A DNA stretch of 45,359 bases from Escherichia phage Mt1B1_P10. Each line of letters opens with the position of its first letter. Positions within the stretch are counted from its first letter, which is position 1. Below, one piece after another: positions 13,473-39,280 of this stretch. Location: sequence record MT496971.1, one strand, 5' to 3'. Position numbers and translations under genes: made by a program. The notes under the pieces were generated by a model, which did not search any database, was not told the DNA's origin, and worked only from the letters and a program-made list of their open reading frames with translations.

Positions 13473-13488
13473 GTCTCACATGTGAGAC
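13473..13488 (-). promoter_or_regulatory. Conserved 16-bp palindrome GTCTCAC-RY-GTGAGAC (copy 1)
   Basis: gtctcacatgtgagac between two internal virion protein genes; about 9-bp stem with flanks, followed by a U-rich tract on the transcript. Confidence 0.55.
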
Positions 13489-13505
13489 AAGCCTTGAGTT
13501 AGGTA

Positions 13506-16454
13506 CTACAACTTAACTTTACCTACCTTAGAGCCTTTAGCTAACTTGGTAGGTGCAGCCTCATAAACCTGATACCAGCCATCAGCGCCAATACGTTTAT
13601 GAGTCCATGCAGATACAGAACCTGCTGGCATAGGTCCGCCGAACTTAACCCACATAGACCCATCTTCGCGAGTCTCTACTTCGGTAATCTTAGGTACACC
13701 ACCGGCAGATGCCATATTGTAAGCCTCAGCGCGTCGCTTCAGTAAACCAGGAATACGCTTACCTTCACTGGATGCAGTACCCAGCATTTCGATAAAGCCT
13801 TCTGTAAGCTTACCTGCCTTGAATGCAGCAAGAGCACGCGGTGCATTCTGGATTCCACCTTTACCTAAGTTATAGGTTAAATCCATTAAACCGCGCTGCT
13901 GTGCCGGATGCATCTGGTCGAATGGGATTTTCCAATCACGAGTTGGAGGTACATGCTTCTTGGCATCTTGTTCCATAAGAGCACGGGCCTTACTCTCAGT
14001 GAGCTGAGACATAGAGCCGCGATACGGAACCAGTTCGTCGCCAATCTTAATGTACCCATTTCTCTTTTCTTCTTCCGTAAGGAAGTGACCGTAGCCTACC
14101 GACTCGCCATGTGCATCTTTGTACGGTGTGAAGGTTCCTGTGGCTTTGTTGAAGCCCAGCTTATCGCCATTCTCATCCATAGCTAGCTTGTCATAGAATT
14201 GTTGCATATTGCCTCTATAGTTAATCTCGAAGTTAGAAGGTAGATTCTCACCAGAAGCAAAGGCAGAAGACATGAGGAAATTAGCTAGTCCAAATTTACC
14301 AATATCCTTGGCAGTTGGCTTAGCTGGCATGGGTTCTTGTGCACCGATATCTGTACGATATGGGTGAACATATTCACCTTTATCTCGTTCTTCTACTTTC
14401 TTCTGATAGGCAGAGTCTAGCAGTGAAGTGGTATCTAAAGAAGTGACAGGGATTACTCCAGAAAGAGGGCGACCTGCTGCACCAGCACGAATCACGAAAG
14501 TACCTTTCTGTTCATTGTAATCAATGTATACATCATCCTTAGTTTCCCACTCTTGAAGTTCCTTCTTCAATTCTGGCATTTGTGTTTCTACATACCTACC
14601 AAGCGCCAGAGGTACATCGGTGGGGTTTACACCTTTCCCAACAGACATAAGCATGTCAGATGCAGAAGTGTAATCACCTTTAATGAAATAACCACCGGAA
14701 GTCTTTGCATCCTCTGATTGAGTGTAGCGTTTATTGCCCCAAGTAATTAAAGCCTTCTTGATGGAATCCATGTTACGCATACCGCTAGACCACAGCATAT
14801 TGGCCTTAGCTCGTAACTCTTCTTCTGCAATAGCTTTACCTAAGTCAGATACTTCGGTTTTACCATCAAACCAGCCAGCACCAGATACCTCATCCAGTGC
14901 ATCTCCAATAGCTGAGTTGAACTTCTTGGTTTCTTTCTCAGTACGAGAGAATTTCTGCTGTGCTTCACGGGCAAACCTTGCAGCCTGCAAAGGCGTCTCT
15001 CCCATTTGTAATGCAGTGTTGTAGTTATCCATATAGCCATTCACCGTATCACCAAAGACACCTCGGCTTTCTTCTGGTAACTGTTCCCACAACTGACGAA
15101 TAGTCATTAACTCCTGTGGTTCTCCTTTAGCGAAGTGCTCAGGTGATAGCATAGACTCCATGGCTTTGATACGAGACTCAAAGGTGTCATCCACTAAGCC
15201 TTTGGAGTTCATGAATTGCAGGCGCTGCACTTCCACTGCACCACGAATAGCTTCAGCCTCTTGACTGTAAGGGTCCAAGCCACGTTGTTTGATTTGCTGG
15301 TCTGCATATAGTTGGCTATCCTGTTTGATAACATCAATGTAGGCTTTCTTCTCTTTATCTGTCTTACCTTGGAAGCCAGTCATGCGATCGGAGTAAAGTT
15401 CACGTCGCATATCCTGCATTGCACCTAGCTCTGCATTCTGCTTAGCTCGTTGACGCATCAGTGCTTCTAGTTCTGGATTAGAGAAGACAGAGTTTCCTGT
15501 CAGACTATTAATATGCTGTGCTCGCTCCAGTAATTCTTCATCCGTCAAGTCACCTGCAAGATAGGATTCTTTGACTTCAAAAGACATGCGAGTCACATCA
15601 GCAACATTATTCCTAGCCCAAACTGCATTACCATTAGTGATAGCTGTGATAAGCTGCGGATTCTTAGCATAGACAGAAACACCCTTATCGTCCTTCACGT
15701 ACTTCAAGGCTTCAGCCATGCTAATATCACCACCCTGAGCAAGTGAAATAGCTCGCTCTACCAGCTTCTTATGCATCTGCTCAGGTAATAGTCCTTGAGT
15801 AAATCCCTCGCGGATTCGCTCCTGTAGGGCATAACCAGAAGCTTCGGGGTCAATACTAGAATCCCAAGTAGAAGCCACTCGCCCGTCAAAGGTATCCTCA
15901 CGGTCTGCCTGTTCGCGGTCAAGTTTATGCTGGGTTCGTGTAGCCCAAATCTGAGGCTGCTGTTCTTGGAAGACATTAGTGACCATACGCATAGTATCTT
16001 TGTCACCTTGCAACTCAGGGTATTGCTGGAACAGCTTATTCTGCATCTCATTACGAGAGTCAACCATAAGCTGTGTCCACTCGTCATCCGTTCCTTGGAA
16101 ACGAGTAGCCATGTCTTTCATTCGTGCTGCTTCATCATTAGCTAGCAGTTGAGCTTTGACAAGCATGTTAGCACGAGCGCCACCACGAGTTGCATCCTCA
16201 GAAGGCATTAATCCATTATATGCCCGTTCCATTTGAACAACCTTATCTTCCTCAATCTTTTGATTAAGGATACCAGTGGTTACATCAGCTACACTACTGG
16301 CTGCTCGAATAAGGTCTTCGATAAATCGACTACCGGAGGTAGAAGCTACGCCAGCCTCCACACCTCCAACTCGCTGAGGTGCAAAGGTCATGACATTAGG
16401 AGAAGTGGCCTGCACTTGTGGCAGACCTTGTACTGCTTGTCGCTCAATTGCCAT
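13506..16454 (-). CDS. Internal virion protein with C-terminal lysozyme-like domain, 982 aa
   Basis: YKDAHGESVGYGHFLT parallels the T4-lysozyme (GH24) YKDTEGYYTIGIGHLLT region; ATG start overlaps the upstream stop (TAATG). Confidence 0.7.
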   Translation of the reverse strand: MAIERQAVQGLPQVQATSPNVMTFAPQRVGGVEAGVASTSGSRFIEDLIRAASSVADVTTGILNQKIEEDKVVQMERAYNGLMPSEDATRGGARANMLVKAQLLANDEAARMKDMATRFQGTDDEWTQLMVDSRNEMQNKLFQQYPELQGDKDTMRMVTNVFQEQQPQIWATRTQHKLDREQADREDTFDGRVASTWDSSIDPEASGYALQERIREGFTQGLLPEQMHKKLVERAISLAQGGDISMAEALKYVKDDKGVSVYAKNPQLITAITNGNAVWARNNVADVTRMSFEVKESYLAGDLTDEELLERAQHINSLTGNSVFSNPELEALMRQRAKQNAELGAMQDMRRELYSDRMTGFQGKTDKEKKAYIDVIKQDSQLYADQQIKQRGLDPYSQEAEAIRGAVEVQRLQFMNSKGLVDDTFESRIKAMESMLSPEHFAKGEPQELMTIRQLWEQLPEESRGVFGDTVNGYMDNYNTALQMGETPLQAARFAREAQQKFSRTEKETKKFNSAIGDALDEVSGAGWFDGKTEVSDLGKAIAEEELRAKANMLWSSGMRNMDSIKKALITWGNKRYTQSEDAKTSGGYFIKGDYTSASDMLMSVGKGVNPTDVPLALGRYVETQMPELKKELQEWETKDDVYIDYNEQKGTFVIRAGAAGRPLSGVIPVTSLDTTSLLDSAYQKKVEERDKGEYVHPYRTDIGAQEPMPAKPTAKDIGKFGLANFLMSSAFASGENLPSNFEINYRGNMQQFYDKLAMDENGDKLGFNKATGTFTPYKDAHGESVGYGHFLTEEEKRNGYIKIGDELVPYRGSMSQLTESKARALMEQDAKKHVPPTRDWKIPFDQMHPAQQRGLMDLTYNLGKGGIQNAPRALAAFKAGKLTEGFIEMLGTASSEGKRIPGLLKRRAEAYNMASAGGVPKITEVETREDGSMWVKFGGPMPAGSVSAWTHKRIGADGWYQVYEAAPTKLAKGSKVGKVKL

Positions 16455-17200
16455 TAAATACCTCTTGTTCCAGATGAATATGTACGAGAATCAGTTAAAG
16501 CTTTACCTAAAGCCATGCCGGACTTACTACCTGTTACATAGGCAGATGCCAGACTCGGTATACCTTGCACCAAGGTGCTCACGGCAGAAGGTTTCTTAAA
16601 CTCACGCATCTGCATCTGACCACCACGTTGGATGGACTTAAGCTGGTTTGTGAAGTTAATCTTCTGATTCTCATAGTTATCGATAATTGTACTCTGGTTC
16701 CTTCCGCCTTCTGCTGCTAAGTCATTCAGCATAGAAGACACAGAGTTACCACCAGTACCAGTAGCACCAGCAAGCAATGCAACCTGTGCTCTCTGCTGCA
16801 GTAGTGAAGCCTGATTGCTTATTGCATCCGCATGATACTGTTTAGCAGCAGAGCGTTCTGCATCTGCCACTGTCTTATATGCTTCTTGTGTAGCAATTAA
16901 CTGCTGCCGCCATTGCTCCTCCTGAGCTTTCTTCATAGCTTTGGCTTCATCACTTCCACCAAAAAGATTGCCTAGAAGACCAAGACCTTGCATACCTGCA
17001 CTAAGCAGTCCTGCATTAGAGAAGCCAGCAGAAGAACCTCCTAAGAAACTACCAAGGGAGCCAAGCAAACCTCCGCCACCTGCGGCGGCTGTCCCTCCTG
17101 CTGCTGCGGCAGTACCACCAGCAGCGGCTGCTGCACCGCTACCTGCAAACATACTACCAATAGAAGACATACCAGCCATAACGGCTGAACCTATAGCCAT
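16454..17200 (-). CDS. Internal virion protein, Gly/Ala-rich, 248 aa
   Basis: Start moved to ATG at 17200 (SD AAGGAGGG); the track's GTG start at 17239 is an upstream extension. Confidence 0.6.
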   Translation of the reverse strand: MAIGSAVMAGMSSIGSMFAGSGAAAAAGGTAAAAGGTAAAGGGGLLGSLGSFLGGSSAGFSNAGLLSAGMQGLGLLGNLFGGSDEAKAMKKAQEEQWRQQLIATQEAYKTVADAERSAAKQYHADAISNQASLLQQRAQVALLAGATGTGGNSVSSMLNDLAAEGGRNQSTIIDNYENQKINFTNQLKSIQRGGQMQMREFKKPSAVSTLVQGIPSLASAYVTGSKSGMALGKALTDSRTYSSGTRGI

Positions 17201-19602
17201 TAGACCCTCCTTTTGGTTGGATTGTAGCTCCCTTCCCACTCAATATCGCGAAGCTGGAATGTATGAGGTGATTCTACAATAATACGATAAACAGCATCCG
17301 TGCTCTTGGCCCTCAGTGGGAATCTGAAGACACCCTCCCTTGGTTCAACATAACCTACTGTGTTGTTGAGAGCACCACCTATACGGTTTGACGCTAGCAC
17401 CCTGCGTACTTTACCACTCTTCACATTCTTAACTTCCACGGAGAAATCAGGATACATATCAAGATTAAGGTGAACCAACCCCACAACAGGTACATCAATA
17501 TAGGATACACGGTCTTGCCTATCTCTGATAACTACAGGTGTTGGTTCAAACTCTTGAGGGTAAATCTGACCAACAATAACCTTCGCTTTTACGTGGTTAT
17601 CATCATGCATGTCAAAGGTTGTAGACAAGGTGTTATCACTAGGGTTATATTTGAACAGGAAAGAACCTCCAATGTATGAATCCCACCCTTCTATTAAGAT
17701 GCAATCCAAAAGTTCTGGGTTAGTAGGAGTCCAAGGAAGTGGTTCAGATATCCATTCATCTTCTGCTTTAAAATGCTTGAAGATTAACTCTGCTTGCCTA
17801 TCCATTCTGATGCGGTCATTCAAACCGTAGGTTAGTGCATCACCCATGTCCATCTTCTCCAGATATACGCCATCTCCTCGCTCAAGGAGCAGGTAAAGTA
17901 ATTCACCAGAATAAAACATACCTCGCACCTTTGTACCTATAGGCCACTTCCATACATGCCATGCTGATTGTACACGGTCTGTTCCTTGCCATAACCAATC
18001 GTAGCAGTAGATTATGTTACGATACTTATCGGTAGTGACAAGTAACCTGTTGACATTGGTGCTTGCTGCCATGTTGGTAATGTTACCTTCGATGAGTTTA
18101 TTCACATGACTTGTGATTGCTTGTGCCTTCTTAGTGTCACTATAAGAGTCTGTATAGAACTCTCGTACACCAGAGTAAGAACCATCATTAGTGGCAAACA
18201 TTACCGATTCACCAGTTACTACTGGCTTCACTTTATTGTTCACTTCAAATGTTGTAACAGGCTTAAGCAGTGCATTTGACTTCTCTAAAGGCTTATCGCC
18301 TGGCAGTATGAATTGTGACTTATCAGAGAACAACACGGTAGCGCCATCTAAGGTCACTGCATGTTTTAGCTGGTAGACTTCACTAGCATCTGAGAAAATA
18401 TCAAATGGGTCAGTTGCCAATGCAGAGATAACCGTATAACGAAAGAAATCGAAGAAGTATGATGTACGAGAAGCAATAACCGCTTCACCTGCTGTAAAGC
18501 ATAGGCGGTTCTGCACCATGAACATTCCACCTATTGTCTGGGGTACTTCCTCATCAATAAAAGAGGGCATAGGGTTAGTCAAGTCATCCCCTACTTTACG
18601 ATCTTCCCAATCACCTTGTCTTATCTTGAATTGAGCTATGCCGTCAATGATACCTGTACGTTCAATGATGTAAGGCATTGTGCCTTTATCAAACCCAAGT
18701 AATACATCAGCAGCTATTGTTTCTTTCCAAGACACAAGGTTTCCCTCTTTCGGCTCAGCTTGCAGCCAGTAACGAGACTCAGGTTTGCTGCCAGTAGGCC
18801 ACACTTGCACTTTATAACCAGCAGGCGCACGAGAAGGGAGTAGGTCAGTAGAGCTAACTTTATTCTTGATAGCCACTAAATCCTTGCCTTTTGCACCATC
18901 GGTAGTTGTTACTGTGAAACTTTTACCATCGCGTCTCTCTATAAATATACTCGTACCATCTATTTGTATTTCATAGTCATTCACACCACTCCATTGCTGC
19001 AACTTGGAGTACAATTCAGAAGTGATACGTTCCGTTCGTATTTGTTCAACATGTTCTGCACTTCCCCCATCTGGTGTTTTAAAACTAGCAGCTGTAGTTC
19101 CATTAATTATGATAGAATAAGATGTACCGTATTGACCATATGCACAAAACACAATGGCTTTATCTCCAACTTTAGGTGACTTCCTATTACTAACTTTAAC
19201 CACTTTCCTACGGTTAAGCATAAAAGTAACATCAGCTATAGTCATGAATTGCACATCTTCCCTAGGGTTAACAACTTCAGAAAGGTAGGTCATAGGTGCA
19301 TCTTGAGAGATGACATTGCACTTGCGTCCATGCTTATCAAATATCTCTGGCACTTGCCCCTTCTTTAAGGTGAAGAAATACTCTTCATCTCCCTCACCCC
19401 TGCGATAATGGTGCGTTGCCATATTATCTGTACCTTCATCCAAGAGCTTAGCAATGTGAGTTGTACCCATGCGGGATTGAGTTCCATTCACTACATCAGG
19501 GACCATGTTCACCATAGTCGTACATTGACCATCAAGACGTACCGCTGGAGGTTGCTGGCTAATCCCTTGGATTTGCCTCCCTAATGAACCTTGTACTTCC
19601 AT
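17200..19602 (-). CDS. Tail tubular protein B (T7 gp12-like), 800 aa
   Basis: Size and position; start moved to ATG at 19602 (SD GGGAGG). Confidence 0.8.
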   Translation of the reverse strand: MEVQGSLGRQIQGISQQPPAVRLDGQCTTMVNMVPDVVNGTQSRMGTTHIAKLLDEGTDNMATHHYRRGEGDEEYFFTLKKGQVPEIFDKHGRKCNVISQDAPMTYLSEVVNPREDVQFMTIADVTFMLNRRKVVKVSNRKSPKVGDKAIVFCAYGQYGTSYSIIINGTTAASFKTPDGGSAEHVEQIRTERITSELYSKLQQWSGVNDYEIQIDGTSIFIERRDGKSFTVTTTDGAKGKDLVAIKNKVSSTDLLPSRAPAGYKVQVWPTGSKPESRYWLQAEPKEGNLVSWKETIAADVLLGFDKGTMPYIIERTGIIDGIAQFKIRQGDWEDRKVGDDLTNPMPSFIDEEVPQTIGGMFMVQNRLCFTAGEAVIASRTSYFFDFFRYTVISALATDPFDIFSDASEVYQLKHAVTLDGATVLFSDKSQFILPGDKPLEKSNALLKPVTTFEVNNKVKPVVTGESVMFATNDGSYSGVREFYTDSYSDTKKAQAITSHVNKLIEGNITNMAASTNVNRLLVTTDKYRNIIYCYDWLWQGTDRVQSAWHVWKWPIGTKVRGMFYSGELLYLLLERGDGVYLEKMDMGDALTYGLNDRIRMDRQAELIFKHFKAEDEWISEPLPWTPTNPELLDCILIEGWDSYIGGSFLFKYNPSDNTLSTTFDMHDDNHVKAKVIVGQIYPQEFEPTPVVIRDRQDRVSYIDVPVVGLVHLNLDMYPDFSVEVKNVKSGKVRRVLASNRIGGALNNTVGYVEPREGVFRFPLRAKSTDAVYRIIVESPHTFQLRDIEWEGSYNPTKRRV

Positions 19603-20339
19603 TAACGATCCTCCCACGGACGAAGTGCCCAACTGTCATATGGTGAATGAGAGTAAGCAGGTACATTCTGAGAGCCACCAGCCATGATACCAAACTGACG
19701 CTGAGTGGGGTTATGTACCAGCATGTTTAATCGCTTCTGTGACATTTGCTCAGATTGTACATCCATAAGAAGCTGAGTGGCTATCTGCTGCGCAGTGGCT
19801 AGCTTAGTCTGATCTGCATCCTTAGACACAATAAACTCTACAGCAGCTTGATAGGCAATAGCCTGCATTACACTAGTAGGTAGATGCTCATATGGAAGTA
19901 AGGTAAGTAAGGTAAGACGAATCATACCATTAGCATTCACATGCTTACGCATATCAAAGGTATGACTCCATGTAGAGTAGAGCTTACCTGCTCGCATAGT
20001 CATGGGTACTTTCTTCTCACCCAAAGCATAACACTGCAATACTGCTAGGCAGTTGTTAGGTAGATTGACTTCACCATTGGTATCAGGTGCAATCTGCCAG
20101 TTTGGTTCACGATTGAACCACCAGCCACCTCCTTTGTTGTACTGGAACCGCTGGGATACGATGTCGATCATCTTGCTTGCATCTTCTGCATCCAAGTCCC
20201 CTGAGTCGAGAGAATCCACACCCTCACGACCAATAGCTCGCATACACAGGTTGACCGCTTCAAGTTTACTATCAATAATCTGGAAGGCCACATCTTCCAT
20301 CATGTGTCCTACTTTACTGGTTTGTCTAATTACAGGCAT
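19602..20339 (-). CDS. Tail tubular protein A (T7 gp11-like), 245 aa
   Basis: Position after capsid; start moved to ATG at 20339 (SD AGGAGG). Confidence 0.75.
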   Translation of the reverse strand: MPVIRQTSKVGHMMEDVAFQIIDSKLEAVNLCMRAIGREGVDSLDSGDLDAEDASKMIDIVSQRFQYNKGGGWWFNREPNWQIAPDTNGEVNLPNNCLAVLQCYALGEKKVPMTMRAGKLYSTWSHTFDMRKHVNANGMIRLTLLTLLPYEHLPTSVMQAIAYQAAVEFIVSKDADQTKLATAQQIATQLLMDVQSEQMSQKRLNMLVHNPTQRQFGIMAGGSQNVPAYSHSPYDSWALRPWEDR

Positions 20340-20352
20340 GAATCCTCCTAAC

Positions 20353-20386
20353 AAAAAATAACCCTACCTACGCAAGGTAGATAGGG
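20353..20386 (-). terminator. Intrinsic terminator after the major capsid gene (T-phi analog)
   Basis: RNA CCCUAUCUAC-CUUGC-GUAGGUAGGG (10-bp stem with one G-U) followed by UUAUUUUUUG. Confidence 0.6.
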
Positions 20387-20394
20387 CATAGGTA

Positions 20395-21600: not shown

Positions 21601-21653
21601 TAATAAACCTCCTTATAAATCAAATTGATAATTTAGGGAGACATTTCTCCCTT

Positions 21654-21671: not shown

Positions 21672-21676
21672 ACTGA

Positions 21677-29934: not shown

Positions 29935-29989
29935 ATTAAATTCTCCTTTTGTTGGTTATGGCATTATCGCCGATTAAAATTCTTCTCTT

Positions 29990-30007
29990 CTATAGTGTCC
30001 AGTAAAT
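29990..30007 (-). promoter_or_regulatory. Phage RNAP promoter
   Basis: Minus-strand ATTTACTGGACACTATAGAAGAG. Confidence 0.75.
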
Positions 30008-30022
30008 ACCGGACACCGATTT

Positions 30023-30038
30023 GTCTCACACGTGAGAC
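30023..30038 (-). promoter_or_regulatory. Conserved 16-bp palindrome GTCTCAC-RY-GTGAGAC (copy 2)
   Basis: gtctcacacgtgagac directly after the stop at 30040 and just upstream of the promoter. Confidence 0.55.
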
Positions 30039-30267: not shown

Positions 30268-31074
30268 TTAATATTCCGCGTCCTCATCCATCTCCGGTGC
30301 AGGAGTATCTTCTGCTTCAGGTACTTCCTGTGGAACAGACTCACCAGTATCCATAGATTTACGATTAGCTGGGGTAGCATCTTCCTCGTCTTTCTTCTTA
30401 GCCTTCTTCCATTCAGGGTCTTCTTCACGAGCAGCTTTGATAATAGCTTCTACGTGAGAGCCAGCAACAGACAGGTTCTTACCACGAGGTGTCTCGTTCA
30501 GGAAGTATTGACGTACCAAGTTAGCTGGGATGTCATCAAGGATTTCTTTGGTCAGCTTGTCGAAGGTGATATGACCTGTCATAGACAGACCTTCCTCTTC
30601 TACCTGAGCCAGTACAAGCTTCTTCAACTTATCAGGCATACCGCCAAAGCCTTTCCAGTTAACATACTTGAAAGTACCATCATCATTCTTGTCGCCAGAG
30701 CCAACCATAGTTGCAGTCAGACATTCACCGATAAAATCATCGAAGCCACCCAGCAACTCTTTAGGGTCAACTGCATTCAGGAACTTAGTCAGTGTTGCCT
30801 TATCACCAGACTTCAGAGGCACAGCCATCCATTGTTCCATGCGAGAATCATCTTCATTCTTATCGTCGTCACCCATCAGGATAATCTTAACAAGAACAAA
30901 GTTTGCTGGCTTCTTAACTTCAGTGGTATTACCTTTCTTAAAGATATCTTGGAAGGAACCAACATGAATGATGCCAGAGATTACTGCTTCATGATCACCA
31001 ACTTCAGGGTTCTTAAATACTTTACCTTCAGCTTTAGTAACCTGAGCACCAAAATCAAAATCACCACGTGCCAT
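30268..31074 (-). CDS. Hypothetical acidic-tailed protein, possible ssDNA-binding protein, 268 aa
   Basis: ATG with SD AGGAGA downstream of a promoter; acidic C-terminal tail ending ...EMDEDAEY, reminiscent of T7 gp2.5. SSB assignment is inference only. Confidence 0.45.
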   Translation of the reverse strand: MARGDFDFGAQVTKAEGKVFKNPEVGDHEAVISGIIHVGSFQDIFKKGNTTEVKKPANFVLVKIILMGDDDKNEDDSRMEQWMAVPLKSGDKATLTKFLNAVDPKELLGGFDDFIGECLTATMVGSGDKNDDGTFKYVNWKGFGGMPDKLKKLVLAQVEEEGLSMTGHITFDKLTKEILDDIPANLVRQYFLNETPRGKNLSVAGSHVEAIIKAAREEDPEWKKAKKKDEEDATPANRKSMDTGESVPQEVPEAEDTPAPEMDEDAEY

Positions 31075-31135
31075 TTATTTAGTCTCCTATTGTTACACTA
31101 CACAATCATAGGCCGAACTAAGCCGACCTATTGTT

Positions 31136-31153
31136 CTATAGTGTCCAGTAATT
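31136..31153 (-). promoter_or_regulatory. Phage RNAP promoter
   Basis: Minus-strand AATTACTGGACACTATAGAACAATAGG. Confidence 0.7.
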
Positions 31154-31448
31154 ACTTATGAACTACCTTAATACGTGCAATAGTATCTAGAGGGTAGACA
31201 TAACTAACACATTCACCATCTTCAACCTCTTGTACATTTACACTAGCCATAGTGTCACAAAGTGAAAGGCTCAATTGATGACAAGTTTCACCTTGAGTAA
31301 ACTCTGGACCACGATATGCATCTGCTTGTTCCACAGTAGTGATTGCTGTATCGTCTTCTTTAGCCAGACGAGTGTGACCTGCAACTTTACGCTGCTCTAG
31401 ATCACGAAAGATGATACCTACATGTTTAGCTTGAATCACTTCTTCCAT
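31152..31448 (-). CDS. Hypothetical protein, 98 aa
   Basis: ATG with SD AAGGGG. Confidence 0.45.
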   Translation of the reverse strand: MEEVIQAKHVGIIFRDLEQRKVAGHTRLAKEDDTAITTVEQADAYRGPEFTQGETCHQLSLSLCDTMASVNVQEVEDGECVSYVYPLDTIARIKVVHK

Positions 31449-31457
31449 CATAACCCC

Positions 31458-31835
31458 TTATTTAGTCAAGTTGTCCAGTTCTATTTCCAGCATAACAATC
31501 TCTTTCTTCAGGCTGTCAGATGCAGCTTGATTTACAAGAGCAATTGATGCCTTGTTCTCTTCAAATTCAGCTTTCAGGCTGTCACGCTCTTGCTGGTGAC
31601 GTGCCAGCATATCTTCTACCTCTTTGACTTGACGTGCATTTAGTTCATCACGAGATGCATAGTAGCGGTTATGGCAGTCAATCATTTGAGAACTACGATG
31701 TTCTTCAACTTTAACTTGCTCTGCCTGTACTGCTTCGATGCGAGCCTCAATAGCTTTGATAGCCTTGGACTTGAACTTATTAGCAAGACCACGAAAGTAT
31801 TGAGCCACGAATACCAGAGTAGTTACCATAGACAT
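31458..31835 (-). CDS. Hypothetical coiled-coil protein, 125 aa
   Basis: ATG with SD AGGAGA downstream of a promoter; heptad-like charged repeats. Confidence 0.5.
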   Translation of the reverse strand: MSMVTTLVFVAQYFRGLANKFKSKAIKAIEARIEAVQAEQVKVEEHRSSQMIDCHNRYYASRDELNARQVKEVEDMLARHQQERDSLKAEFEENKASIALVNQAASDSLKKEIVMLEIELDNLTK

Positions 31836-31904
31836 ATTTATATCTCCTATATTTACTTAATTACCTATACTACCTTATAAACCTAGATTACCTAGGCTTT
31901 CCTT

Positions 31905-31922
31905 CTATAGTGTCCAGTAAAT
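31905..31922 (-). promoter_or_regulatory. Phage RNAP promoter
   Basis: Minus-strand ATTTACTGGACACTATAGAAGGAAAG. Confidence 0.75.
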
Positions 31923-32204
31923 CATGTTAGACAAAATAAGTAGGAATAAGTTATTCATAAAGGCCACCCGTAAGTGACCTTGAGTATAACTCAGTCGTAG
32001 TTACCATCACAATCTGGGTCAATGCCAGAGAAAGCCCAGAATACTACCATAAATAATATGATCCCAAGAATGATAAAAGCAGTTTGCATCAATCGTAACC
32101 CTACTCTTCATCAGGTATATCTAATCGCATACTTCCATAGCAAGCAAGCATAAGGAATATAAGAAAGAAGATAGAGAATAGGCAAACAACATCAAACCTG
32201 TCCA

Positions 32205-34751: not shown

Positions 34752-34956
34752 AGATTGCTCCAAAGTATTTAACTCTAAGACTTTTACCTAATACAGAATC
34801 AGGTGTAGCTTTAAGATCAAGATACATTAAGTGCATGTGGTATTTATTATTGTGATCTCTCTGCCTTTTAGTGCGGCAGTTTTCACACTTACCATCAACA
34901 CGACTGCGATAGCCTTTACCGCAAGAGCAAACCTTGCTTAATTTAATAGTCTTCAT
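34738..34956 (-). CDS. Zinc-ribbon protein, 72 aa
   Basis: CxC...CxxC (VCSCGKGYRSRVDGKCENC); start taken at ATG at 34956 (SD AGAGG). Confidence 0.5.
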   Translation of the reverse strand: MKTIKLSKVCSCGKGYRSRVDGKCENCRTKRQRDHNNKYHMHLMYLDLKATPDSVLGKSLRVKYFGAIYEIN

Positions 34957-35081
34957 ACATTGCCTCTGTTTCGTAGTAATCATCTGAACGTTCTGGTTTT
35001 GGATTCATTGAGTCATAGTAATTCCAATCAGAATCATAATCACTTGGCATAATGCACCTCCAATCAATATGATGAAAGGCT

Positions 35082-35097
35082 GTCTCACGTGTGAGAC
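35082..35097 (-). promoter_or_regulatory. Conserved 16-bp palindrome GTCTCAC-RY-GTGAGAC (copy 3)
   Basis: gtctcacgtgtgagac; extended stem of about 9-10 bp, then a U-rich tract. Confidence 0.55.
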
Positions 35098-35273
35098 AAC
35101 CCTCGACTTATCGACTGCGAATCTTACGTTTCACTCCACCTTCCTTGATAACCTGCTCACGCGTCAGGCTGTTCTTCTTTGCTTCAGCTATAGTTAACTG
35201 TGCAAACAGGAAGGCTTGGTTAGTAATTTGTGCTTGCAGGTCTTCGTGACCATCGAACATCTTAAGGCTGTGT

Positions 35274-35528
35274 TTAGACATAAGAGATTGCCACCTCTAC
35301 TTTGCTACCTACCCAATGACCGTGACCACCACGATTACCTAGTGCAGCGCCTACGCCCCAGCCAATACCCTTATCGTTTACATAAATAGTTCGACCTTCT
35401 TGATAAGATCTAACAAAGACCATACCTTTAGCATTAAAACTTACAATACGCATACGGCCTTTAAATGTACCACGACGTAATTGTTTCTGAGCACGCTTGA
35501 TGCAGCGTTTGATTGCACGTTGTTTCAT
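35274..35528 (-). CDS. Hypothetical basic protein, 84 aa
   Basis: ATG with SD GGAGA overlapping the upstream stop (TAATG). Confidence 0.5.
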   Translation of the reverse strand: MKQRAIKRCIKRAQKQLRRGTFKGRMRIVSFNAKGMVFVRSYQEGRTIYVNDKGIGWGVGAALGNRGGHGHWVGSKVEVAISYV

Positions 35529-35743
35529 TACTTAGTCTCCACCATAAAAGAGCCAATAACTTTAAAATCTTTACGGAACTCTTTTTCAGTCCAATGACCG
35601 AAAAGTTCCCTCTGAAAACTTACACTACGACTGGCACCTATTAATGCCAACCCCTTTGAAGTACCATATGGCTTGACACCATCTGGTGCTACAACTGCAT
35701 AGCATTTATGAGGTCCACGCATATAAATTAATACCTTAGTCAT
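35528..35743 (-). CDS. Hypothetical protein, 71 aa
   Basis: ATG with SD AAGGGG. Confidence 0.5.
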   Translation of the reverse strand: MTKVLIYMRGPHKCYAVVAPDGVKPYGTSKGLALIGASRSVSFQRELFGHWTEKEFRKDFKVIGSFMVETK

Positions 35744-35753
35744 GATTAACCCC

Positions 35754-36476
35754 TTAGATATTCACGTATGTTTCTTCAGTAACGATAGGTAGATACAGTA
35801 ATTCTTCACCATTTAAGATGTGAAGACCTTTCAACCCTTGCTTACGAATAATACCTTCTATAGTGTCGGCAAAATGCTTATTAATTACACGTCGTTGCGT
35901 ACCTTGTTCTGTGATTGCATGGTCAACATCCATGATTCGCACAGGTACATTTGGATGCATCATGGCTTCTCCAATCTTTACCATAGCTTGTCCTGTGGAT
36001 TTACCCAATGCACGAGTATTAAACTGTGTAACACCTAATGCAGTGCCACATTGCTTAATCATCTCACTTTGAGTCTTACCAGTGATTACATTGCGGCGCT
36101 CTTTCTTAAGTGTGGTACGTCGTCCATTTGAGCGCTCAAACTGCAATGTCTTCCAAGCTGCTTCTGCAATGGTCTTGTGACCAGCACCATACATAGAGCC
36201 ATAGCGTTGAGCAAAGGTAAAGGCTTTAATTGCCTGACGTTTGCACTTATCGCAAACCTCATCATGTATGCACTTACATTGATTGTTTACCTCTACAATC
36301 TTTTCAAGATATTTATGTGCTGTCTTCTTGTGGTAATACTGCTTAACACCACTGTGATATTCTACATAATACAGGTTCTCACCTACAAAGGTTACAACAC
36401 CACGGCAAAGATAGCGACTTGAATCTTTCTTGATGTTGCGTACAAAGTCACCTACATTCAACACTAAGTTATACAT
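35754..36476 (-). CDS. Hypothetical protein with Cys cluster, 240 aa
   Basis: Start moved to ATG at 36476 (SD GGAGA) downstream of a promoter and hairpin; CKCIHDEVCDKCK cluster; no recognisable catalytic motif. Confidence 0.55.
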   Translation of the reverse strand: MYNLVLNVGDFVRNIKKDSSRYLCRGVVTFVGENLYYVEYHSGVKQYYHKKTAHKYLEKIVEVNNQCKCIHDEVCDKCKRQAIKAFTFAQRYGSMYGAGHKTIAEAAWKTLQFERSNGRRTTLKKERRNVITGKTQSEMIKQCGTALGVTQFNTRALGKSTGQAMVKIGEAMMHPNVPVRIMDVDHAITEQGTQRRVINKHFADTIEGIIRKQGLKGLHILNGEELLYLPIVTEETYVNI

Positions 36477-36515
36477 AATCAATCTCCAGTTATTTAATGT
36501 ACTTAATAAGAGCCT

Positions 36516-36531
36516 GTCTCACACGTGAGAC
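36516..36531 (-). promoter_or_regulatory. Conserved 16-bp palindrome GTCTCAC-RY-GTGAGAC (copy 4)
   Basis: gtctcacacgtgagac just after the primase stop, in the 5' leader of the next gene. Confidence 0.55.
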
Positions 36532-36552
36532 AAGCCCTGATAAATACACTAA

Positions 36553-38538
36553 TCAGAACTCACTTTCTTCATCGAAGTTAGTCTCTTCTATAGTGTCCGG
36601 TAAATCAGGCACCTCTTGCTGCCTTGCTTCACCTGTATCAAATGACTTAGTACGGGCTTGTGGTTCCATCAAACGTCCGGTCTGAATGTCACCTTTAAGC
36701 ATGACCTTGGTTCCAGTCCAGATACCTTGGTCGCGGTCTTTGACACATGAGATGTACGTGGTAGTCCTTTCGTCAAGCGTTTCAGCTCTTGTATTACGCT
36801 CAATCCCCAAGGCGTAAGATGCCCAGAATCCGATAGCGCCTGAGCCTCGGAAGTCAGAAAGGATAACTTCGCCACCTTCTTCGTGTTGGGTACGGTTTGC
36901 CGGAGGACGTGTAAGGTGTGATACAAGGAATATAGTAACCGGGTGTCGGTCTTTGATAGTACCAATCCGCTTGACGCATTCATCAAGTGCACCAACCTTC
37001 CCACCAAAAGCACGCTCATCTAATTTAATCCCCGTTAAGTTATCAATGATGATATTAGAAATGCCCATAGCCTCAAACTCTAGGCAAGTTTGCTCTACCT
37101 TTTCCATCGAATAGTCACCCTCTAGGTCAGCCACAAACAGCTTACCTGTATCAGCTACATAATCAATGGCGGCGTTAGCTTCTTCCTCGGTGTAGTCGAA
37201 CACCTCACGGTATCCATCTTCTTTCGGGTCGTTGGTTGGCGGTAACTCAATACGCTTATCAATCCACTTGCCGATAAAAGCACGGGACACCTTGACCATC
37301 GGGTCTTCTGTAGAAATGATGCCTACAGATTCACCGTGTTCTTCAATGAGGTGCTTAACTACTTCACGAAGGAACTCAGTCTTACCTACACCAGACCCTG
37401 CACCTACAATGATAAGCTGGTTCTTACGAATACCTAGCGTTACCTTGTTCAGCTTAGGCCAAGGCCATGATAGCCCTTGCTCTGGACGTGCAGCCTTGAG
37501 CTTATCCCTTTGAGATGCGATAGATTTAATCTGGCTACCAAAGACTTCATCAGATGACTTGGCATTAAACCAAGCATCAACAAACTCTTTAGCCTTGCCA
37601 GCCATCAATGCCTTGTTAGCATCTTTGCAACCAGAAGGGTATTCAAGGATATAGGATTTGCCAGGAAACAGGCGAGCCGCTTGCTGATTCTGCTTCTGCC
37701 CTACCTCATCTCCATCAAAACCCCATATAATCTTCTTAAATTGGGCGATGTGTTCACGGTTCTGTACTATCTCTTCAAGGCAAGACTCACCTTTATTGAC
37801 AGACCATACATGGTAAGGCTGGCCTTCCCACTTAGTACCCTTGGCAGAATCAAGGAGCATTTGCTGTGCTGCTAGTGCATCCAGTTCGCCGCCCACAATA
37901 AGCAAGCAATCCTTTCGTCTTCCCTTGTCTAACACGTGAGACAAAGTATTCATACCGAAAAGATCTTGCATACCAAAGAGTTTACCTAAATGACCAAACT
38001 TAAAGTCTTTAGGTAATGTGCGACACTTAGCGCCTACTAGCTCACCTTTCTCGAATCGTGGATAGTAATGCCGTGAGACTCTACCATCTTCATCGTGTCC
38101 GACACGTACATCGTACAATGCGCAAATGTCGCCGCGAATGTGTCGGGAAACAAGATTCTTACGCTTAAGCGTGAGGAACCATTCAACATCAAGTTTCCAC
38201 TCTGTTTCTTGGTCTGTCCTTTCTTGCTCATTCATGACCTCCCAACGGTCTTTCATACGCATGGCACCTAATGCCAATGCGCGGTCTTCTGTTGTCTTAA
38301 TCTTCCCTTCTTTAATGAGGTCTTGGAACTGACTAACAGTCCACTTAGTTGCCCCAAGAGGTAGGTCTAGAATATTAGAAGACTCTCCAGCTTTCTCATA
38401 ATAAGGCTTACCATTACTATGAAAATGTGCACGGTTGCAATATTTACCGCCGTCATCAAACCAGATTAAATGATTTTGGCTACGATCGTGACCATTGCGA
38501 GCACATTCGGGGCACACAGAATTATTTATAATAGCCAT
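36553..38538 (-). CDS. DNA primase/helicase (T7 gp4-like), 661 aa
   Basis: N-terminal zinc ribbon CPECARNGHD...CNRAH; Walker A GAGSGVGKT; acidic C-terminus ending ...NFDEESEF. Confidence 0.9.
   Translation of the reverse strand: MAIINNSVCPECARNGHDRSQNHLIWFDDGGKYCNRAHFHSNGKPYYEKAGESSNILDLPLGATKWTVSQFQDLIKEGKIKTTEDRALALGAMRMKDRWEVMNEQERTDQETEWKLDVEWFLTLKRKNLVSRHIRGDICALYDVRVGHDEDGRVSRHYYPRFEKGELVGAKCRTLPKDFKFGHLGKLFGMQDLFGMNTLSHVLDKGRRKDCLLIVGGELDALAAQQMLLDSAKGTKWEGQPYHVWSVNKGESCLEEIVQNREHIAQFKKIIWGFDGDEVGQKQNQQAARLFPGKSYILEYPSGCKDANKALMAGKAKEFVDAWFNAKSSDEVFGSQIKSIASQRDKLKAARPEQGLSWPWPKLNKVTLGIRKNQLIIVGAGSGVGKTEFLREVVKHLIEEHGESVGIISTEDPMVKVSRAFIGKWIDKRIELPPTNDPKEDGYREVFDYTEEEANAAIDYVADTGKLFVADLEGDYSMEKVEQTCLEFEAMGISNIIIDNLTGIKLDERAFGGKVGALDECVKRIGTIKDRHPVTIFLVSHLTRPPANRTQHEEGGEVILSDFRGSGAIGFWASYALGIERNTRAETLDERTTTYISCVKDRDQGIWTGTKVMLKGDIQTGRLMEPQARTKSFDTGEARQQEVPDLPDTIEETNFDEESEF
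36588..36605 (-). promoter_or_regulatory. Phage RNAP promoter (within primase 3' end)
   Basis: Minus-strand ATTTACCGGACACTATAGAAGAGAC. Confidence 0.7.
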
Positions 38539-38539
38539 G

Positions 38540-38896
38540 TTATTTCCTTAGTAAACAGCCGTGATAAGTATTGTATGCAACTGACACCCACTCTAGGTTA
38601 TCCGCATTGTTGTTCAACTTGTTACCATCTTTATGATTTACAATATCAAAACTGGTAAGATTAGGGACGAAAGCAAGTGCAACCAATCGGTGTACTTTCT
38701 CAGTTCTAGGCGGGAAGTAGCTAAAGTCACCATGCTTTCTCATAGACAGACGAAGATAGCCATCTTTATCTGGGCTTCCCTTCATAATTTTAGGTGTCTT
38801 ACGCTTATGCTTGCCCCAATAGGCATTTGCCACTCTGCCCTTGTTAGATACTAGATATTTACCATCATAGCCTTTTACTGGTTTCCATATTTCCAT
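38540..38896 (-). CDS. HNH homing endonuclease (NUMOD4-like plus HNH), 118 aa
   Basis: WKPVKGYDGKYLVSNKGRV, HRLVALAF and VNHKDGNKLNNNADNLEW motifs; paralog of the HNH at 8239-8682. Confidence 0.8.
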   Translation of the reverse strand: MEIWKPVKGYDGKYLVSNKGRVANAYWGKHKRKTPKIMKGSPDKDGYLRLSMRKHGDFSYFPPRTEKVHRLVALAFVPNLTSFDIVNHKDGNKLNNNADNLEWVSVAYNTYHGCLLRK

Positions 38897-38899
38897 AAC

Positions 38900-39028
38900 T
38901 TAGAACTCCAACGCAGCGCGTTTAGATGCACGGTCACGGATAGGTTTATTCAGCTTCTTGCCTTTCTTCTGCCCTTCTTCCATGTCAAAACGGTTAGCTT
39001 TACGGGTCATCTTCTCAAAGTTACGCAT
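38900..39028 (-). CDS. T7 gp1.1-like small basic protein, 42 aa (below track cutoff)
   Basis: ATG at 39028 with SD GGAGA; MRNFEKMTRKANRFDMEEGQKKGKKLNKPIRDRASKRAALEF, strongly reminiscent of T7 gene 1.1 (MRNFEKMT...) as recalled. Confidence 0.55.
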   Translation of the reverse strand: MRNFEKMTRKANRFDMEEGQKKGKKLNKPIRDRASKRAALEF

Positions 39029-39058
39029 GGTTAAATCTCCAAAGTGAGTTAGTCTTAT

Positions 39059-39076
39059 CTATACTGTCCGGTAAAT
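39059..39076 (-). promoter_or_regulatory. Phage RNAP promoter (variant with G at -5)
   Basis: Minus-strand ATTTACCGGACAGTATAGATAAGAC, 31 nt upstream of the gp1.1-like ORF. Confidence 0.5.
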
Positions 39077-39081
39077 ACGAA

Positions 39082-39097
39082 GTCTCACATGTGAGAC
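39082..39097 (-). promoter_or_regulatory. Conserved 16-bp palindrome GTCTCAC-RY-GTGAGAC (copy 5)
   Basis: gtctcacatgtgagac immediately upstream of the promoter at 39059-39076. Confidence 0.55.
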
Positions 39098-39244
39098 AGC
39101 TTAGGTCTGCCCTTCCTCTAAATAGTAATAAGAGGAAGGAAGGAGGTAATAGGTACCCCTAGATAACTTATATAACCTTTAATACCTATTACTTCCTTTT
39201 ATATCCTTTTATCTTCCCCTTCTTTCCCGTCTCCGACGGCTATC

Positions 39245-39262
39245 CTATAGTGTCCGGTAAAT
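39245..39262 (-). promoter_or_regulatory. Phage RNAP promoter
   Basis: Minus-strand ATTTACCGGACACTATAGGATAG; the following ~150 nt have no ORF and end at palindrome copy 5. Confidence 0.65.
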
Positions 39263-39264
39263 AA

Positions 39265-39280
39265 GTCTCACATGTGAGAC
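39265..39280 (-). promoter_or_regulatory. Conserved 16-bp palindrome GTCTCAC-RY-GTGAGAC (copy 6)
   Basis: gtctcacatgtgagac between the RNAP gene end and the promoter at 39245. Confidence 0.55.

What the first reader, a model, noticed from the sequence alone, without database searches (positions are those of the whole stretch)
13473..39280. Six copies of a 16-bp palindrome GTCTCAC-RY-GTGAGAC at gene boundaries
Near-identical copies at 13473, 30023, 35082, 36516, 39082 and 39265, all intergenic. On the minus-strand transcript each forms a 6-10-bp stem with a 4-nt loop followed by a U-rich tract. Several sit directly upstream of a promoter or directly after a stop codon. This looks like a dedicated family of terminators, pause sites or RNA-processing sites, or a binding site for a dimeric protein.
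Basis: seen in the sequence. Interest (0 to 1): 0.65.

Follow-up and report, generated by a model that had tools for sequence, protein, structure and literature searches.

The report
Operator palindromes doubling as RNA-processing hairpins
The repeated 16-bp palindrome is most likely the DNA docking site of a previously uncharacterised early phage protein with a KorB/ParB-like DNA-binding domain, and when transcribed it also forms the tip of three T7-style RNase III cutting sites, so one short sequence appears to work at both the DNA and the RNA level.

Summary
GTCTCAC-RY-GTGAGAC occurs six times exactly (0.08 expected), always in the 6% of the genome that is intergenic, and there are two degenerate copies. 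The window is a complete K1E/K1-5-like phage genome.

The element is not a terminator: the bare hairpin is about -7 kcal/mol and no U tract is conserved.

Two things were found.

1. Copies 13473, 35082 and 36516 cap long, covariation-supported RNA hairpins. These hairpins have the frame of T7 RNase III sites, and a model trained only on T7 sites finds them.

2. The palindrome family spans all SP6-like phages at syntenic sites, including directly upstream of phage promoters and inside genes. Its arm sequence is genome-specific. It co-varies with one residue in the helix-turn-helix of an early protein (window 42046-42939): Lys goes with C at arm position 5 in 6 of 6 lineages, and Asn/His/Arg goes with A in 8 of 8. 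A confident model of that protein best matches the KorB and ParB DNA-binding domains, followed by a coiled coil and a J-like domain.

Best reading: these are operators for a dimeric KorB-like phage protein, re-used in RNA as RNase III hairpin tips. What the bound protein does is not established.

The parts
39265..39280 (-). Core palindrome S1 (GTCTCACATGTGAGAC). It lies 45 nt after the early terminator that follows the RNAP gene and 2 nt upstream of position -17 of phage promoter P1.
   Evidence: syntenic in all relatives
39082..39097 (-). Core palindrome S2, 5 nt upstream of -17 of phage promoter P2. It lies between two promoters upstream of the gene 1.1 homologue, the same position as T7 R1.1.
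37927..37942 (-). Degenerate core S3 (sense strand GTCTCACGTGTTAGAC) inside the primase/helicase ORF, coding L-S-H-V-L-D. A perfect 3' arm would create a TGA stop codon.
36516..36531 (-). Core palindrome S4, forming the tip of an RNase III-type hairpin.
36490..36552 (-). S4 long hairpin: 13-bp upper stem, internal loop, 12-bp lower stem. It starts at the primase/helicase stop codon and is followed by a ribosome-binding site and ATG.
   Evidence: fold z = -6.4; 97.5% paired against 33-52% in slid controls; T7-only covariance model 18.7 bits, E = 0.022 in 10.5 kb
35082..35097 (-). Core palindrome S5, forming the tip of an RNase III-type hairpin.
35056..35118 (-). S5 long hairpin with internal loop, lying between a 57-aa gene and the next ribosome-binding site.
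   Evidence: z = -4.7; 10 of 24 pairs compensatory, 98.5% paired, 0 of 500 shuffles reach it; model R1 16.5 bits, E = 0.076
30023..30038 (-). Core palindrome S6, 2 nt after the stop codon of gene 17 and 15 nt upstream of -17 of a phage promoter.
29994..30017 (-). Second hairpin at S6: upstream GGTGTCC pairs with the promoter's own -8..-1 (GGACACT).
   Evidence: covaries with promoter specificity in Proteus, PP1, L150 and L153
13473..13488 (-). Core palindrome S7, forming the tip of an RNase III-type hairpin between the two large internal-virion-protein genes.
13447..13509 (-). S7 long hairpin with the T7 frame ACUCAAGG...(core)...UCUUUAUGAU.
   Evidence: T7-only covariance model 29.8 bits, E = 1.2e-3 here and 1e-7 to 3e-5 in SP6, Proteus, PP1 and cp4 orthologues; z = -3.9
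44754..44769 (-). Left-end copy S0 (GTCTAAC AC GTTAGAC on the sense strand), 34 nt upstream of the -35 hexamer of a host-type early promoter. Its arms deviate from the genome's own variant.
42046..42939 (-). Gene of the proposed binding protein (K1-5 gp6 / SP6 gp7 family, 294-297 aa), the last early gene before the RNAP gene. It has a KorB/ParB-like HTH domain (DUF3102), a disordered linker, a coiled coil and a J-like domain. The co-varying residue is Lys66 (numbered from Met; Lys69 of the ORF).
39243..39262 (-). Phage promoter P1 (ATTTACCGGACACTATAGGA).
39057..39076 (-). Phage promoter P2 (ATTTACCGGACAGTATAGAT).
29988..30007 (-). Phage promoter downstream of S6 (ATTTACTGGACACTATAGAA).

Best explanation
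The palindrome is the operator of a phage-encoded, sequence-specific DNA-binding protein. That protein is the early product of window 42046-42939 (minus strand). It has an N-terminal KorB/ParB-type helix-turn-helix domain, a coiled coil that would make it a dimer, and a C-terminal J-like domain. One dimer would sit on each 16-bp site, with half-site (T)GTCTCACR.

The sites form a small network: one lies upstream of the host-type early promoters, three lie 2-15 bp upstream of the first phage-RNAP promoters of the DNA-metabolism region, three lie at gene boundaries, and one lies inside the primase/helicase gene. This layout resembles the promoter-proximal and promoter-distal operators of plasmid RK2 KorB.

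The whole genome is transcribed rightward through these sites, so each palindrome also folds as an RNA hairpin. At three sites (13473, 35082, 36516) that hairpin has been built into the apical stem of T7-type RNase III processing sites. These sites would cut the polycistronic RNA between cistrons and leave a 3' hairpin.

Shown: the copies, their synteny, the RNA structures, the match to the T7 frame, the protein-DNA co-variation, and the fold similarity.

Inferred: physical binding, dimerisation, RNase III cleavage, and the regulatory outcome. My best guess for the outcome is temporal control or insulation of the first phage promoters and of early transcription, possibly linked to the replication-origin-like region between P1 and P2.
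For: Family and synteny: the same element occupies the same sites in every SP6-like genus examined, with genome-specific arms. The variants are GTCTCAC, GTCCAAC, GTCTAAC/GTTGGAC, a 3-nt centre in Proteus, GTCTACA, GTCTAGT, GTCTCAT and GTCTACY.

Concerted change: all transcribed copies of a genome share the variant, including coding copies as far as the reading frame allows. In TCAC-type phages His replaces Asn at S3, at the cost of a base pair.

Partner protein: in the helix FGIKKAQCY-X-LM of the gp6-like protein, X = K in all six lineages with C at arm position 5 (Vectrevirus, Era103-like, L186/187, L193, L198, L199). X = N, H or R in all eight lineages with A there. Fisher P = 0.002 on 12 lineages as run; about 3e-4 on 14, computed by hand. 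Asn with A and Lys with G is the usual recognition chemistry (established knowledge). Vectrevirus (K) is 65-73% identical to N/H-type proteins but only 47% identical to Era103 (K), so the switch happened more than once.

Half-site symmetry: T at -1 and a purine at position 8 on both half-sites; the centre is always R-Y in 161 of 161 two-nucleotide centres.

DNA-level role: the untranscribed left-end copy S0 is conserved in all genera. T7 lacks both the protein and the palindrome.

RNA layer: S5 has 10 of 24 compensatory pairs and sense-strand G.U pairs. Fold z-scores are -3.9 to -6.4. The frame is shared with T7 RNase III sites. A covariance model built only from T7 sites finds S7 in every genus and ranks S4 and S5 second and third in 10.5 kb.
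Confidence: 0.62

Rival explanations
1. Purely RNA element: a family of conserved stem-loops on the rightward transcripts. The full versions are RNase III sites. The bare versions are 3'-end-protecting or processing hairpins placed just before promoters, for example a hairpin followed by an RNase E-sensitive AU-rich promoter leader. Under this reading the gp6-like protein either binds the RNA hairpin or co-varies by coincidence.
For: Arm positions 4-5 always change so as to keep pairing. In Zindervirus the arms form U.G on the sense strand at all sites S2-S7 and never C.A. Three copies are demonstrably part of structured, covarying RNA hairpins with the T7 RNase III frame. At a coding copy, synonymous sites covary: TCC/TTG, TCT/TTA, TCT/TTG, never TCC/TTA. 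S6 is followed by a second covarying hairpin.
Against: A structure-only element would not keep one identical arm sequence at all sites of a genome while the neighbouring stems drift freely. TCAC-type phages accept a mismatch at S3 in order to match their own arm sequence. The bare hairpin is weak (-7 kcal/mol) and no extended structure is conserved at S1, S2 or S3. The left-end copy lies upstream of all promoters, yet it is conserved in every genus. The co-varying protein has a dsDNA-binding fold. The R-Y centre and the T(-1)/A(+1) flanks are symmetric as for a duplex half-site.
Confidence: 0.2
2. Dedicated intrinsic terminators or pause sites for the phage or host RNA polymerase.
For: Each copy is a hairpin after a gene. 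In this window a few copies are followed by U-rich sequence. One orthologue was annotated as an ARNold terminator in phage R4596, and one was annotated as a terminator in Proteus phage Pm5460.
Against: Bare hairpin dG is about -7 kcal/mol, against -18 for the two genuine terminator hairpins of this genome. The tail is AAAUCGG at 30023. The tails at S1 and S2 are simply the AT-rich start of the next promoter, at variable spacing in relatives. The U-rich 3' strands of S4, S5 and S7 pair with the 5' flank as an RNase III lower stem and internal loop. Copies also occur inside essential ORFs.
Confidence: 0.05
3. Selfish or recombinogenic palindromes: a REP-like or MITE-like repeat, or a recombination hot spot, homogenised by ectopic gene conversion and marking module boundaries, with no dedicated binding protein.
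For: Copies are homogeneous within genomes. The centre dinucleotide flips AC<->GT between near-identical genomes, as expected for hairpin-mediated inversion. Mosaic junctions and gene indels abut the elements. Occasional foreign variants occur at single sites.
Against: The sites are syntenic from E. coli phages to relatives with about 35% protein identity, so they are not recent insertions. Conversion across a 16-bp repeat whose differences lie in the middle of the arms is mechanistically unlikely (inference). No transposase or HUH enzyme is present. This reading does not explain the residue-to-base co-variation.
Confidence: 0.05

Closest known systems
KorB and its OB operators on IncP plasmid RK2 (ParB superfamily)
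   Different: The phage protein has no ParB/Srx CTPase domain and no annotated ParA/IncC partner. It dimerises, if at all, through a coiled coil, and it ends in a J-like domain. The operator sequence is unrelated (GTCTCAC-RY-GTGAGAC against TTTAGCSGCTAAA, from memory). The promoters nearby are for a single-subunit phage RNAP. The host element is a strictly lytic T7-supergroup phage.
ParB-parS and related SopB-sopC, VirB-DNA systems
   Same: The HTH DNA-binding fold is shared. The target is a 16-bp palindrome. The parS half-site GTTTCAC resembles GTCTCAC at 6 of 7 positions (from memory, a lead only).
   Different: There is a 2-bp (or 3-bp) spacer between half-sites. No CTPase domain and no partition ATPase are present. 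There is no evidence of spreading or sliding.
RNase III processing sites of phage T7 (R0.3, R0.5, R1.1, R4.7, R18.5 and others)
   Same: Copies S4, S5 and S7 have the same architecture (upper stem, internal loop, lower stem) and the same frame, CUCAAGG...CCUUUAU/GAU. They lie between cistrons just upstream of a ribosome-binding site, often beside promoters. S2 sits where T7 has R1.1.
   Different: The upper stem is 3-4 bp longer, and its tip is the conserved operator palindrome instead of T7's GGUCRC...GUGGCC stem. The same genome also has ordinary T7-like sites without the palindrome (31941-31995, 43721-43773), and Era103 uses an ordinary upper stem at S7. Cleavage has not been shown.
REP / BIME extragenic palindromes of enterobacteria
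   Same: Both are short conserved palindromes after stop codons that fold in mRNA and are homogeneous within a genome.
   Different: REPs are spread by RAYT transposases and are not syntenic over long distances. Here the sites are syntenic, there are few of them, and they co-vary with an HTH protein.

Membership tests
Operator set of a KorB/ParB-type DNA-binding protein | Multi-copy palindromic site on the replicon that encodes the protein | tested here: met
   6 exact and 2 degenerate copies. There are 5-11 copies in every relative that encodes the protein. None in T7, which lacks the protein.
Operator set of a KorB/ParB-type DNA-binding protein | Cognate protein with the KorB/ParB helix-turn-helix DNA-binding fold | tested here: met
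   [not shown]
Operator set of a KorB/ParB-type DNA-binding protein | Specificity link between protein and site | tested here: met
   The helix residue co-varies with arm position 5 in 14 of 14 lineages. Other helix changes accompany changes at arm positions 6-7.
Operator set of a KorB/ParB-type DNA-binding protein | Physical, sequence-specific binding of the protein to duplex sites | not testable with these tools
   Needs EMSA, footprinting or ChIP-seq.
ParB family proper (partition/CTP clamp) | N-terminal ParB/Srx CTPase domain | tested here: not met
   No ParBc hit in the Pfam scan of 79 family members. In the model a single long helix precedes the HTH.
ParB family proper (partition/CTP clamp) | Partner ParA-type ATPase encoded nearby | tested here: not met
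   No such gene appears in the annotations of K1E, BP12B, SP6 or K1-5, nor among the window ORFs that were scanned. This is a weak test.
T7-type RNase III processing site | Hairpin of about 20-25 bp with upper stem, internal loop and lower stem on the transcript | tested here: met
   Met for S4, S5 and S7. Not met for S1, S2, S3, S6 and S0, where only the 6-7-bp core is conserved.
T7-type RNase III processing site | Conserved frame CUCAAGG...CCUUUAUGAU around the upper stem | tested here: met
   Tested with a covariance model built only from 7 T7 sites. S7 scores E = 1.2e-3 here and 1e-7 to 3e-5 in four other genera. The model also recovers T7 R6.5, which was not in the training set. S4 scores E = 0.022 and S5 E = 0.076 in 10.5 kb with filters off, so these two are marginal. 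The T7 site coordinates were taken from memory (Dunn & Studier 1983); the common fold and frame found at those coordinates corroborate them.
T7-type RNase III processing site | Cleavage by host RNase III at the internal loop | not testable with these tools
   Needs in vitro cleavage or end-mapping in rnc+ and rnc- hosts.
Intrinsic (class I) transcription terminator | Stable G+C-rich hairpin immediately followed by a conserved U run | tested here: not met
   dG is -4.7 to -7.2 kcal/mol for bare cores, against -18 for the real terminators. There are 0-5 U in the first 8 nt of the tail, and the tail is not conserved across orthologues.
Known RNA families (Rfam) | Match to any curated covariance model | tested here: not met
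   No match at E <= 1 in the whole window.

The most novel reading that the evidence does not exclude
SP6-like lytic phages run a small regulon built on a KorB-like, J-domain-bearing early protein. Its palindromic operators sit next to single-subunit-RNAP promoters, next to the early host promoters and in the origin-like region. It would therefore be a transcription or replication factor for a T7-type polymerase system, a system usually thought to lack such factors apart from lysozyme. The same operators are dual-coded as the apical hairpins of RNase III sites, so protein specificity, DNA sites and RNA structure co-evolve together.
Probability: 0.4. Interest if true: 0.78.

Novelty: new variant of a known kind. 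Interest (0 to 1): 0.62.

Why it matters
T7-supergroup phages are the textbook case of gene control by polymerase switching, promoter strength and RNase III processing, with essentially no sequence-specific DNA-binding regulators. A conserved early protein with its own operator network would add a new control layer to SP6, K1E and K1-5-type phages, which are widely used as therapeutic phages and as sources of RNA polymerases. It would assign a function to a family of uncharacterised proteins (DUF3102, 131 clusters at 50% identity). It would also give a compact natural example of one sequence read at both the DNA level (operator) and the RNA level (RNase III hairpin). The one-residue-to-one-base co-variation gives a directly testable specificity code. 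In practical terms, the sites and the RNase III hairpins matter for anyone engineering these genomes at 'intergenic' positions.

Tried and rejected
1. Literature. No held paper contains the 16-mers. None mentions RNase III together with SP6-like phages. DUF3102 appears only in incidental mentions. Dobbins 2004 (PMC374404) is not held, and Scholl 2004 is not open access, so I could not check whether those genome papers mention the repeat. A paper citing 'seven SP6 terminators' gave no coordinates. The GenBank records of SP6, K1-5 and K1E carry no regulatory features.

2. Rfam: nothing found.

3. Primase-site idea (all arms start with GTC, like T7 primase sites). Dropped because SP6 primase is reported to recognise GCA (from memory), and because this idea does not explain the palindrome.

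4. Lagging-strand-hairpin idea (left-end copy inverted in SP6). Contradicted by PP1, cp4-like phages and L140.

5. Long-range RNase III stems enclosing promoters at S1 and S2, or S1:S2 duplexes. No conserved structure beyond the core was found, and the centres are not constrained to be complementary.

6. Whole-protein identity screen for a variant-tracking protein: no outlier. The column-wise convergence screen then gave the lead in the gp6-like protein.

7. The gp18-like protein (weak TraR HTH hit, E = 0.48). Rejected as the specificity factor because no column distinguishes TCAC-type from other phages.

8. Pfam, PHROGs and PDB sequence searches of the small proteins were uninformative.

9. 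The viral-contig scan for the exact motif mostly returned single chance hits.

10. The first homologue search returned only orthologues at 90% identity or above.

Full report
**What the window is.**
The window is a complete linear phage genome in reverse orientation. All genes lie on the minus strand. There is a 267-bp direct terminal repeat, 1-267 = 45093-45359. The sequence is 93-97% identical to K1E/K1-5-type Vectrevirus genomes of the Molineuxvirinae, the SP6-like branch of the T7 supergroup. It has twelve phage-type promoters, consensus ATTTACYGGACACTATAGAA, all pointing leftward in window coordinates.

**The observation.**
GTCTCACNNGTGAGAC occurs exactly six times, at the stated coordinates, against 0.08 expected. 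There are two further copies. One, at 37927, has one mismatch and lies inside the primase/helicase ORF. The other, at 44754, reads GTCTAAC..GTTAGAC and lies near the genome's left end. All six exact copies fall in the 6.1% of the genome that is intergenic, giving P of about 5e-8.

I name the copies in the direction of transcription:

| Name | Window start | Context |
|---|---|---|
| S0 | 44754 | 34 nt upstream of the -35 hexamer of a host-type early promoter |
| S1 | 39265 | 2 nt upstream of -17 of phage promoter P1 |
| S2 | 39082 | 5 nt upstream of -17 of phage promoter P2 |
| S3 | 37927 | inside the primase/helicase ORF |
| S4 | 36516 | 22 nt after a stop codon, about 33 nt before the next start codon |
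| S5 | 35082 | 11 nt after a stop codon, about 33 nt before the next start codon |
| S6 | 30023 | 2 nt after a stop codon; 15 nt upstream of -17 of a phage promoter |
| S7 | 13473 | 18 nt after a stop codon, about 33 nt before the next start codon |

**Not terminators.**
The bare core folds as a 6-bp stem with a 4-nt loop, at -4.7 to -7.2 kcal/mol. The two genuine terminator hairpins of this genome (39324-39347 and 29477-29504) are at -18 kcal/mol. The 'U-rich tract' is AAAUCGG at S6. At S1 and S2 it is simply the AT-rich start of the next promoter, and its spacing varies in relatives. One orthologue (S4) had been annotated as a predicted terminator in two public records.

**RNA layer: three copies cap RNase III-type hairpins.**
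S4, S5 and S7 fold into long hairpins with a 13-bp upper stem, a small internal loop and a 10-12-bp lower stem. Their z-scores against shuffles are -6.4, -4.7 and -3.9. S1, S2 and S0 show no more structure than shuffles.

- **S5, 22 orthologues.** 98.5% of cells are paired, against 31-46% when partners are slid. Ten of 24 pairs show compensatory changes. 0 of 500 shuffles reach the observed values. Several pairs are G.U on the sense strand only, which places the structure on the transcript.
- **S4.** 97.5% of cells are paired, against 33-52% in the slid controls.

I folded T7 at its RNase III cleavage coordinates, which I took from memory of Dunn & Studier 1983. This showed the common frame ACUCAAGG-[upper stem]-CCUUUAU/GAU. 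S7 reads ACUCAAGGCUU-[core]-AGGUCUUUAUGAU, and S4 and S5 are looser versions of the same frame.

A covariance model built only from seven T7 sites gave these results:

- It finds S7 in the window (E = 1.2e-3) and in SP6, Proteus, Pectobacterium and Klebsiella phages (E = 1e-7 to 3e-5).
- It recovers T7 R6.5, which was not in the training set.
- It reveals two ordinary T7-like sites in this window that lack the palindrome, at 31941-31995 (E = 2e-8) and 43721-43773.
- With filters off, S4 (E = 0.022) and S5 (E = 0.076) are the second and third best matches in 10.5 kb.

In Era103 the S7 position has an ordinary upper stem. So the palindrome is an exchangeable tip on RNase III hairpins, not a requirement for them.

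**The family and its odd evolution.**
The element is present at the same sites throughout the subfamily, but its arms differ between lineages:

| Arm variant | Where found |
|---|---|
| GTCTCAC | Vectrevirus, Era103-like phages |
| GTCCAAC | Klebsiella cp4-like, Pectobacterium PP1, Proteus, several metagenomic lineages |
| GTCTAAC/GTTGGAC | SP6, BP12B |
| 3-nt centre at all five transcribed sites | Proteus |
| GTCTACA, GTCTAGT, GTCTCAT, GTCTACY | more distant relatives |

The most distant relatives keep the same layout: RNAP gene, then core, promoter, core, promoter; a stop codon followed by core and promoter; and copies inside the RNAP, primase and DNAP genes.

Among 166 distinct copies, arm pairs 4 and 5 always change together, and the centre is R-Y in all 161 two-nucleotide cases. 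Arm pairs 1-3 were fixed by the search pattern, so their invariance is not an independent result.

Within a genome, all transcribed copies share one variant, while the neighbouring stems of S4, S5 and S7 drift independently. Coding copies follow the genome's variant as far as the reading frame allows. In TCAC-type phages S3 reads GTCTCAC GT GTTAGAC. His replaces Asn there, and a perfect arm would create a TGA stop codon. The peptide at this position is not conserved in phages that lack the copy. A structure-only RNA element does not predict this homogenisation.

**The partner protein.**
A whole-protein identity screen found no protein that tracks the variant. A column-wise screen then looked for residues shared by the two unrelated TCAC clades but absent from all others. 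It flagged Lys69 of the ORF at 42046-42939. This is the last early gene before the RNAP gene. It corresponds to K1-5 gp6 and SP6 gp7, it is conserved in every phage that bears the element, and it has no hit in T7.

In its segment FGIKKAQCY-X-LM, residue X behaves as follows:

- **X = K** in all six lineages whose arms have C at position 5: Vectrevirus, Era103-like, L186/187, L193, L198 and L199.
- **X = N, H or R** in all eight lineages with A at position 5.

Further helix changes (KKAYVYR against KKAWAYR) accompany CA against GT at arm positions 6-7. Fisher's test gives P = 0.002 on twelve lineages as run, and about 3e-4 on all fourteen, which I computed by hand. Shared ancestry inflates these values. 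However, the Vectrevirus protein (K) is 65-73% identical to N/H-type proteins and only 47% identical to the Era103 protein (K). So the switch occurred at least twice, each time together with all sites. Asn with adenine, and Lys with guanine (the complement of C5), is the usual recognition chemistry.

**What the protein looks like.**

- **Family size.** There are 131 clusters at 50% identity.
- **Domain hits.** Individual members hit DUF3102 (24 of 79), DnaJ (5 of 79) and KfrA_N (1 of 79). None hits the ParB CTPase domain.
- **Model.** An AlphaFold2 model built on a 79-sequence alignment is confident, with pLDDT 90-98 for residues 20-125 and for the C-terminal domain. It shows a helix-turn-helix (helices 46-57 and 61-74, with residue X in the second helix), a disordered acidic linker, a 40-residue helix consistent with a coiled coil, and a small helical C-terminal domain.
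- **Foldseek.** It lists VirB-, ParB- and SopB-DNA complexes first, at weak E-values.

**Synthesis.**
The most economical account is a dual-level element. At the DNA level the palindrome is the operator of a dimeric KorB-like phage protein. This explains five things:

- the genome-specific arm sequence and its co-variation with the protein;
- the symmetric half-site (T)GTCYMACR;
- the conservation of an untranscribed left-end copy;
- the copies inside ORFs;
- a site layout that, from memory, resembles the promoter-proximal and promoter-distal KorB operators of RK2.

At the RNA level every transcribed copy must fold. Selection against C.A but not U.G explains the sense-strand asymmetry in Zindervirus. 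It also explains why mismatches of the C.A type are confined to S0, S1 and coding copies. At S4, S5 and S7 the hairpin has been incorporated as the tip of RNase III sites.

What the bound protein does is not established. Its position next to the early promoters, next to the first two phage promoters (which flank a conserved origin-like region equivalent to T7 phi1.1A/R1.1/phi1.1B) and next to the gene-18 promoter suggests control or insulation of early and middle transcription, or of replication initiation. The J-like domain hints at a chaperone link. These last points are inference.

**Limits.**
No binding, cleavage or expression data exist. The fold similarity is moderate. The original SP6 and K1-5 genome papers could not be read, so earlier mention of the repeat cannot be excluded. 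Two observations are still not explained: single sites of a foreign variant in K1-5 and L133, and the deviant left-end copy.

Noticed in passing
window 31941-31995 (-) and 43721-43773 (-): Two T7-type RNase III hairpins without the palindrome. The first (GAGUUAUACUCAAGGUCACUUACGGGUGGCCUUUAUGAAUAACUU) is almost identical in frame and upper stem to T7 R1.1 and lies just upstream of promoter 31903-31922. The second lies in the early region. A model built only from T7 sites gives E = 1.8e-8 and 0.009.
   Followed up: partly
window 29994-30017 (-): A second hairpin lies directly after copy S6. Upstream sequence GGTGTCC pairs with the promoter's own -8..-1 (GGACACT). In Proteus, Pectobacterium, L150 and L153 phages the upstream arm changes to match each phage's different promoter sequence. 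So read-through RNA (or single-stranded DNA) folds the promoter into a stem.
   Followed up: partly
window 39227-39239 (-): The transcript from promoter P1 starts with a conserved small hairpin, CCGUC-GGA-GACGG, at +7 to +19. Relatives keep it with compensatory changes (CCAUC/GAUGG, CCUUC/GAAGG). The region between P1 and P2 resembles the T7 primary origin in layout.
   Followed up: no
window 1-267 and 45093-45359: A perfect 267-bp direct terminal repeat. The window is a complete linear genome given in reverse orientation.
   Followed up: yes
window 38540-38896 (-): An HNH homing endonuclease gene (NUMOD4 + HNH_3) is inserted between the gene 1.1 homologue and the primase/helicase gene. It is absent from SP6 and the Proteus phage.
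   Followed up: partly
window 30268-31074 (-): A 268-aa protein of unknown family (phrog_862) ends in an acidic tail with a terminal aromatic residue (...EMDEDAEY), like the T7 gp2.5 single-strand-binding protein. It is probably the SSB of this phage group.
   Followed up: no
copies S1, S4, S5, S6 in window versus L001, L002, L129-L138: The central dinucleotide flips between AC and GT (its own reverse complement), and to AT, at the same site in genomes that are 93-97% identical, while the arms stay fixed. This looks like frequent hairpin-loop inversion.
   Followed up: partly
window 35098-35140 and 36532-36575; L129-L137 equivalents: Among close relatives, alternative upstream genes and small-gene indels (gene 9.5, HNH) join the common sequence exactly at the lower stems of the S4 and S5 hairpins. 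So these elements coincide with mosaic junctions.
   Followed up: no
L155 1560-1716: The distant relative has about 17 tandem copies of TGTCCTGGT(T/C) immediately upstream of its left-end palindrome.
   Followed up: no
[not shown]
   Followed up: partly
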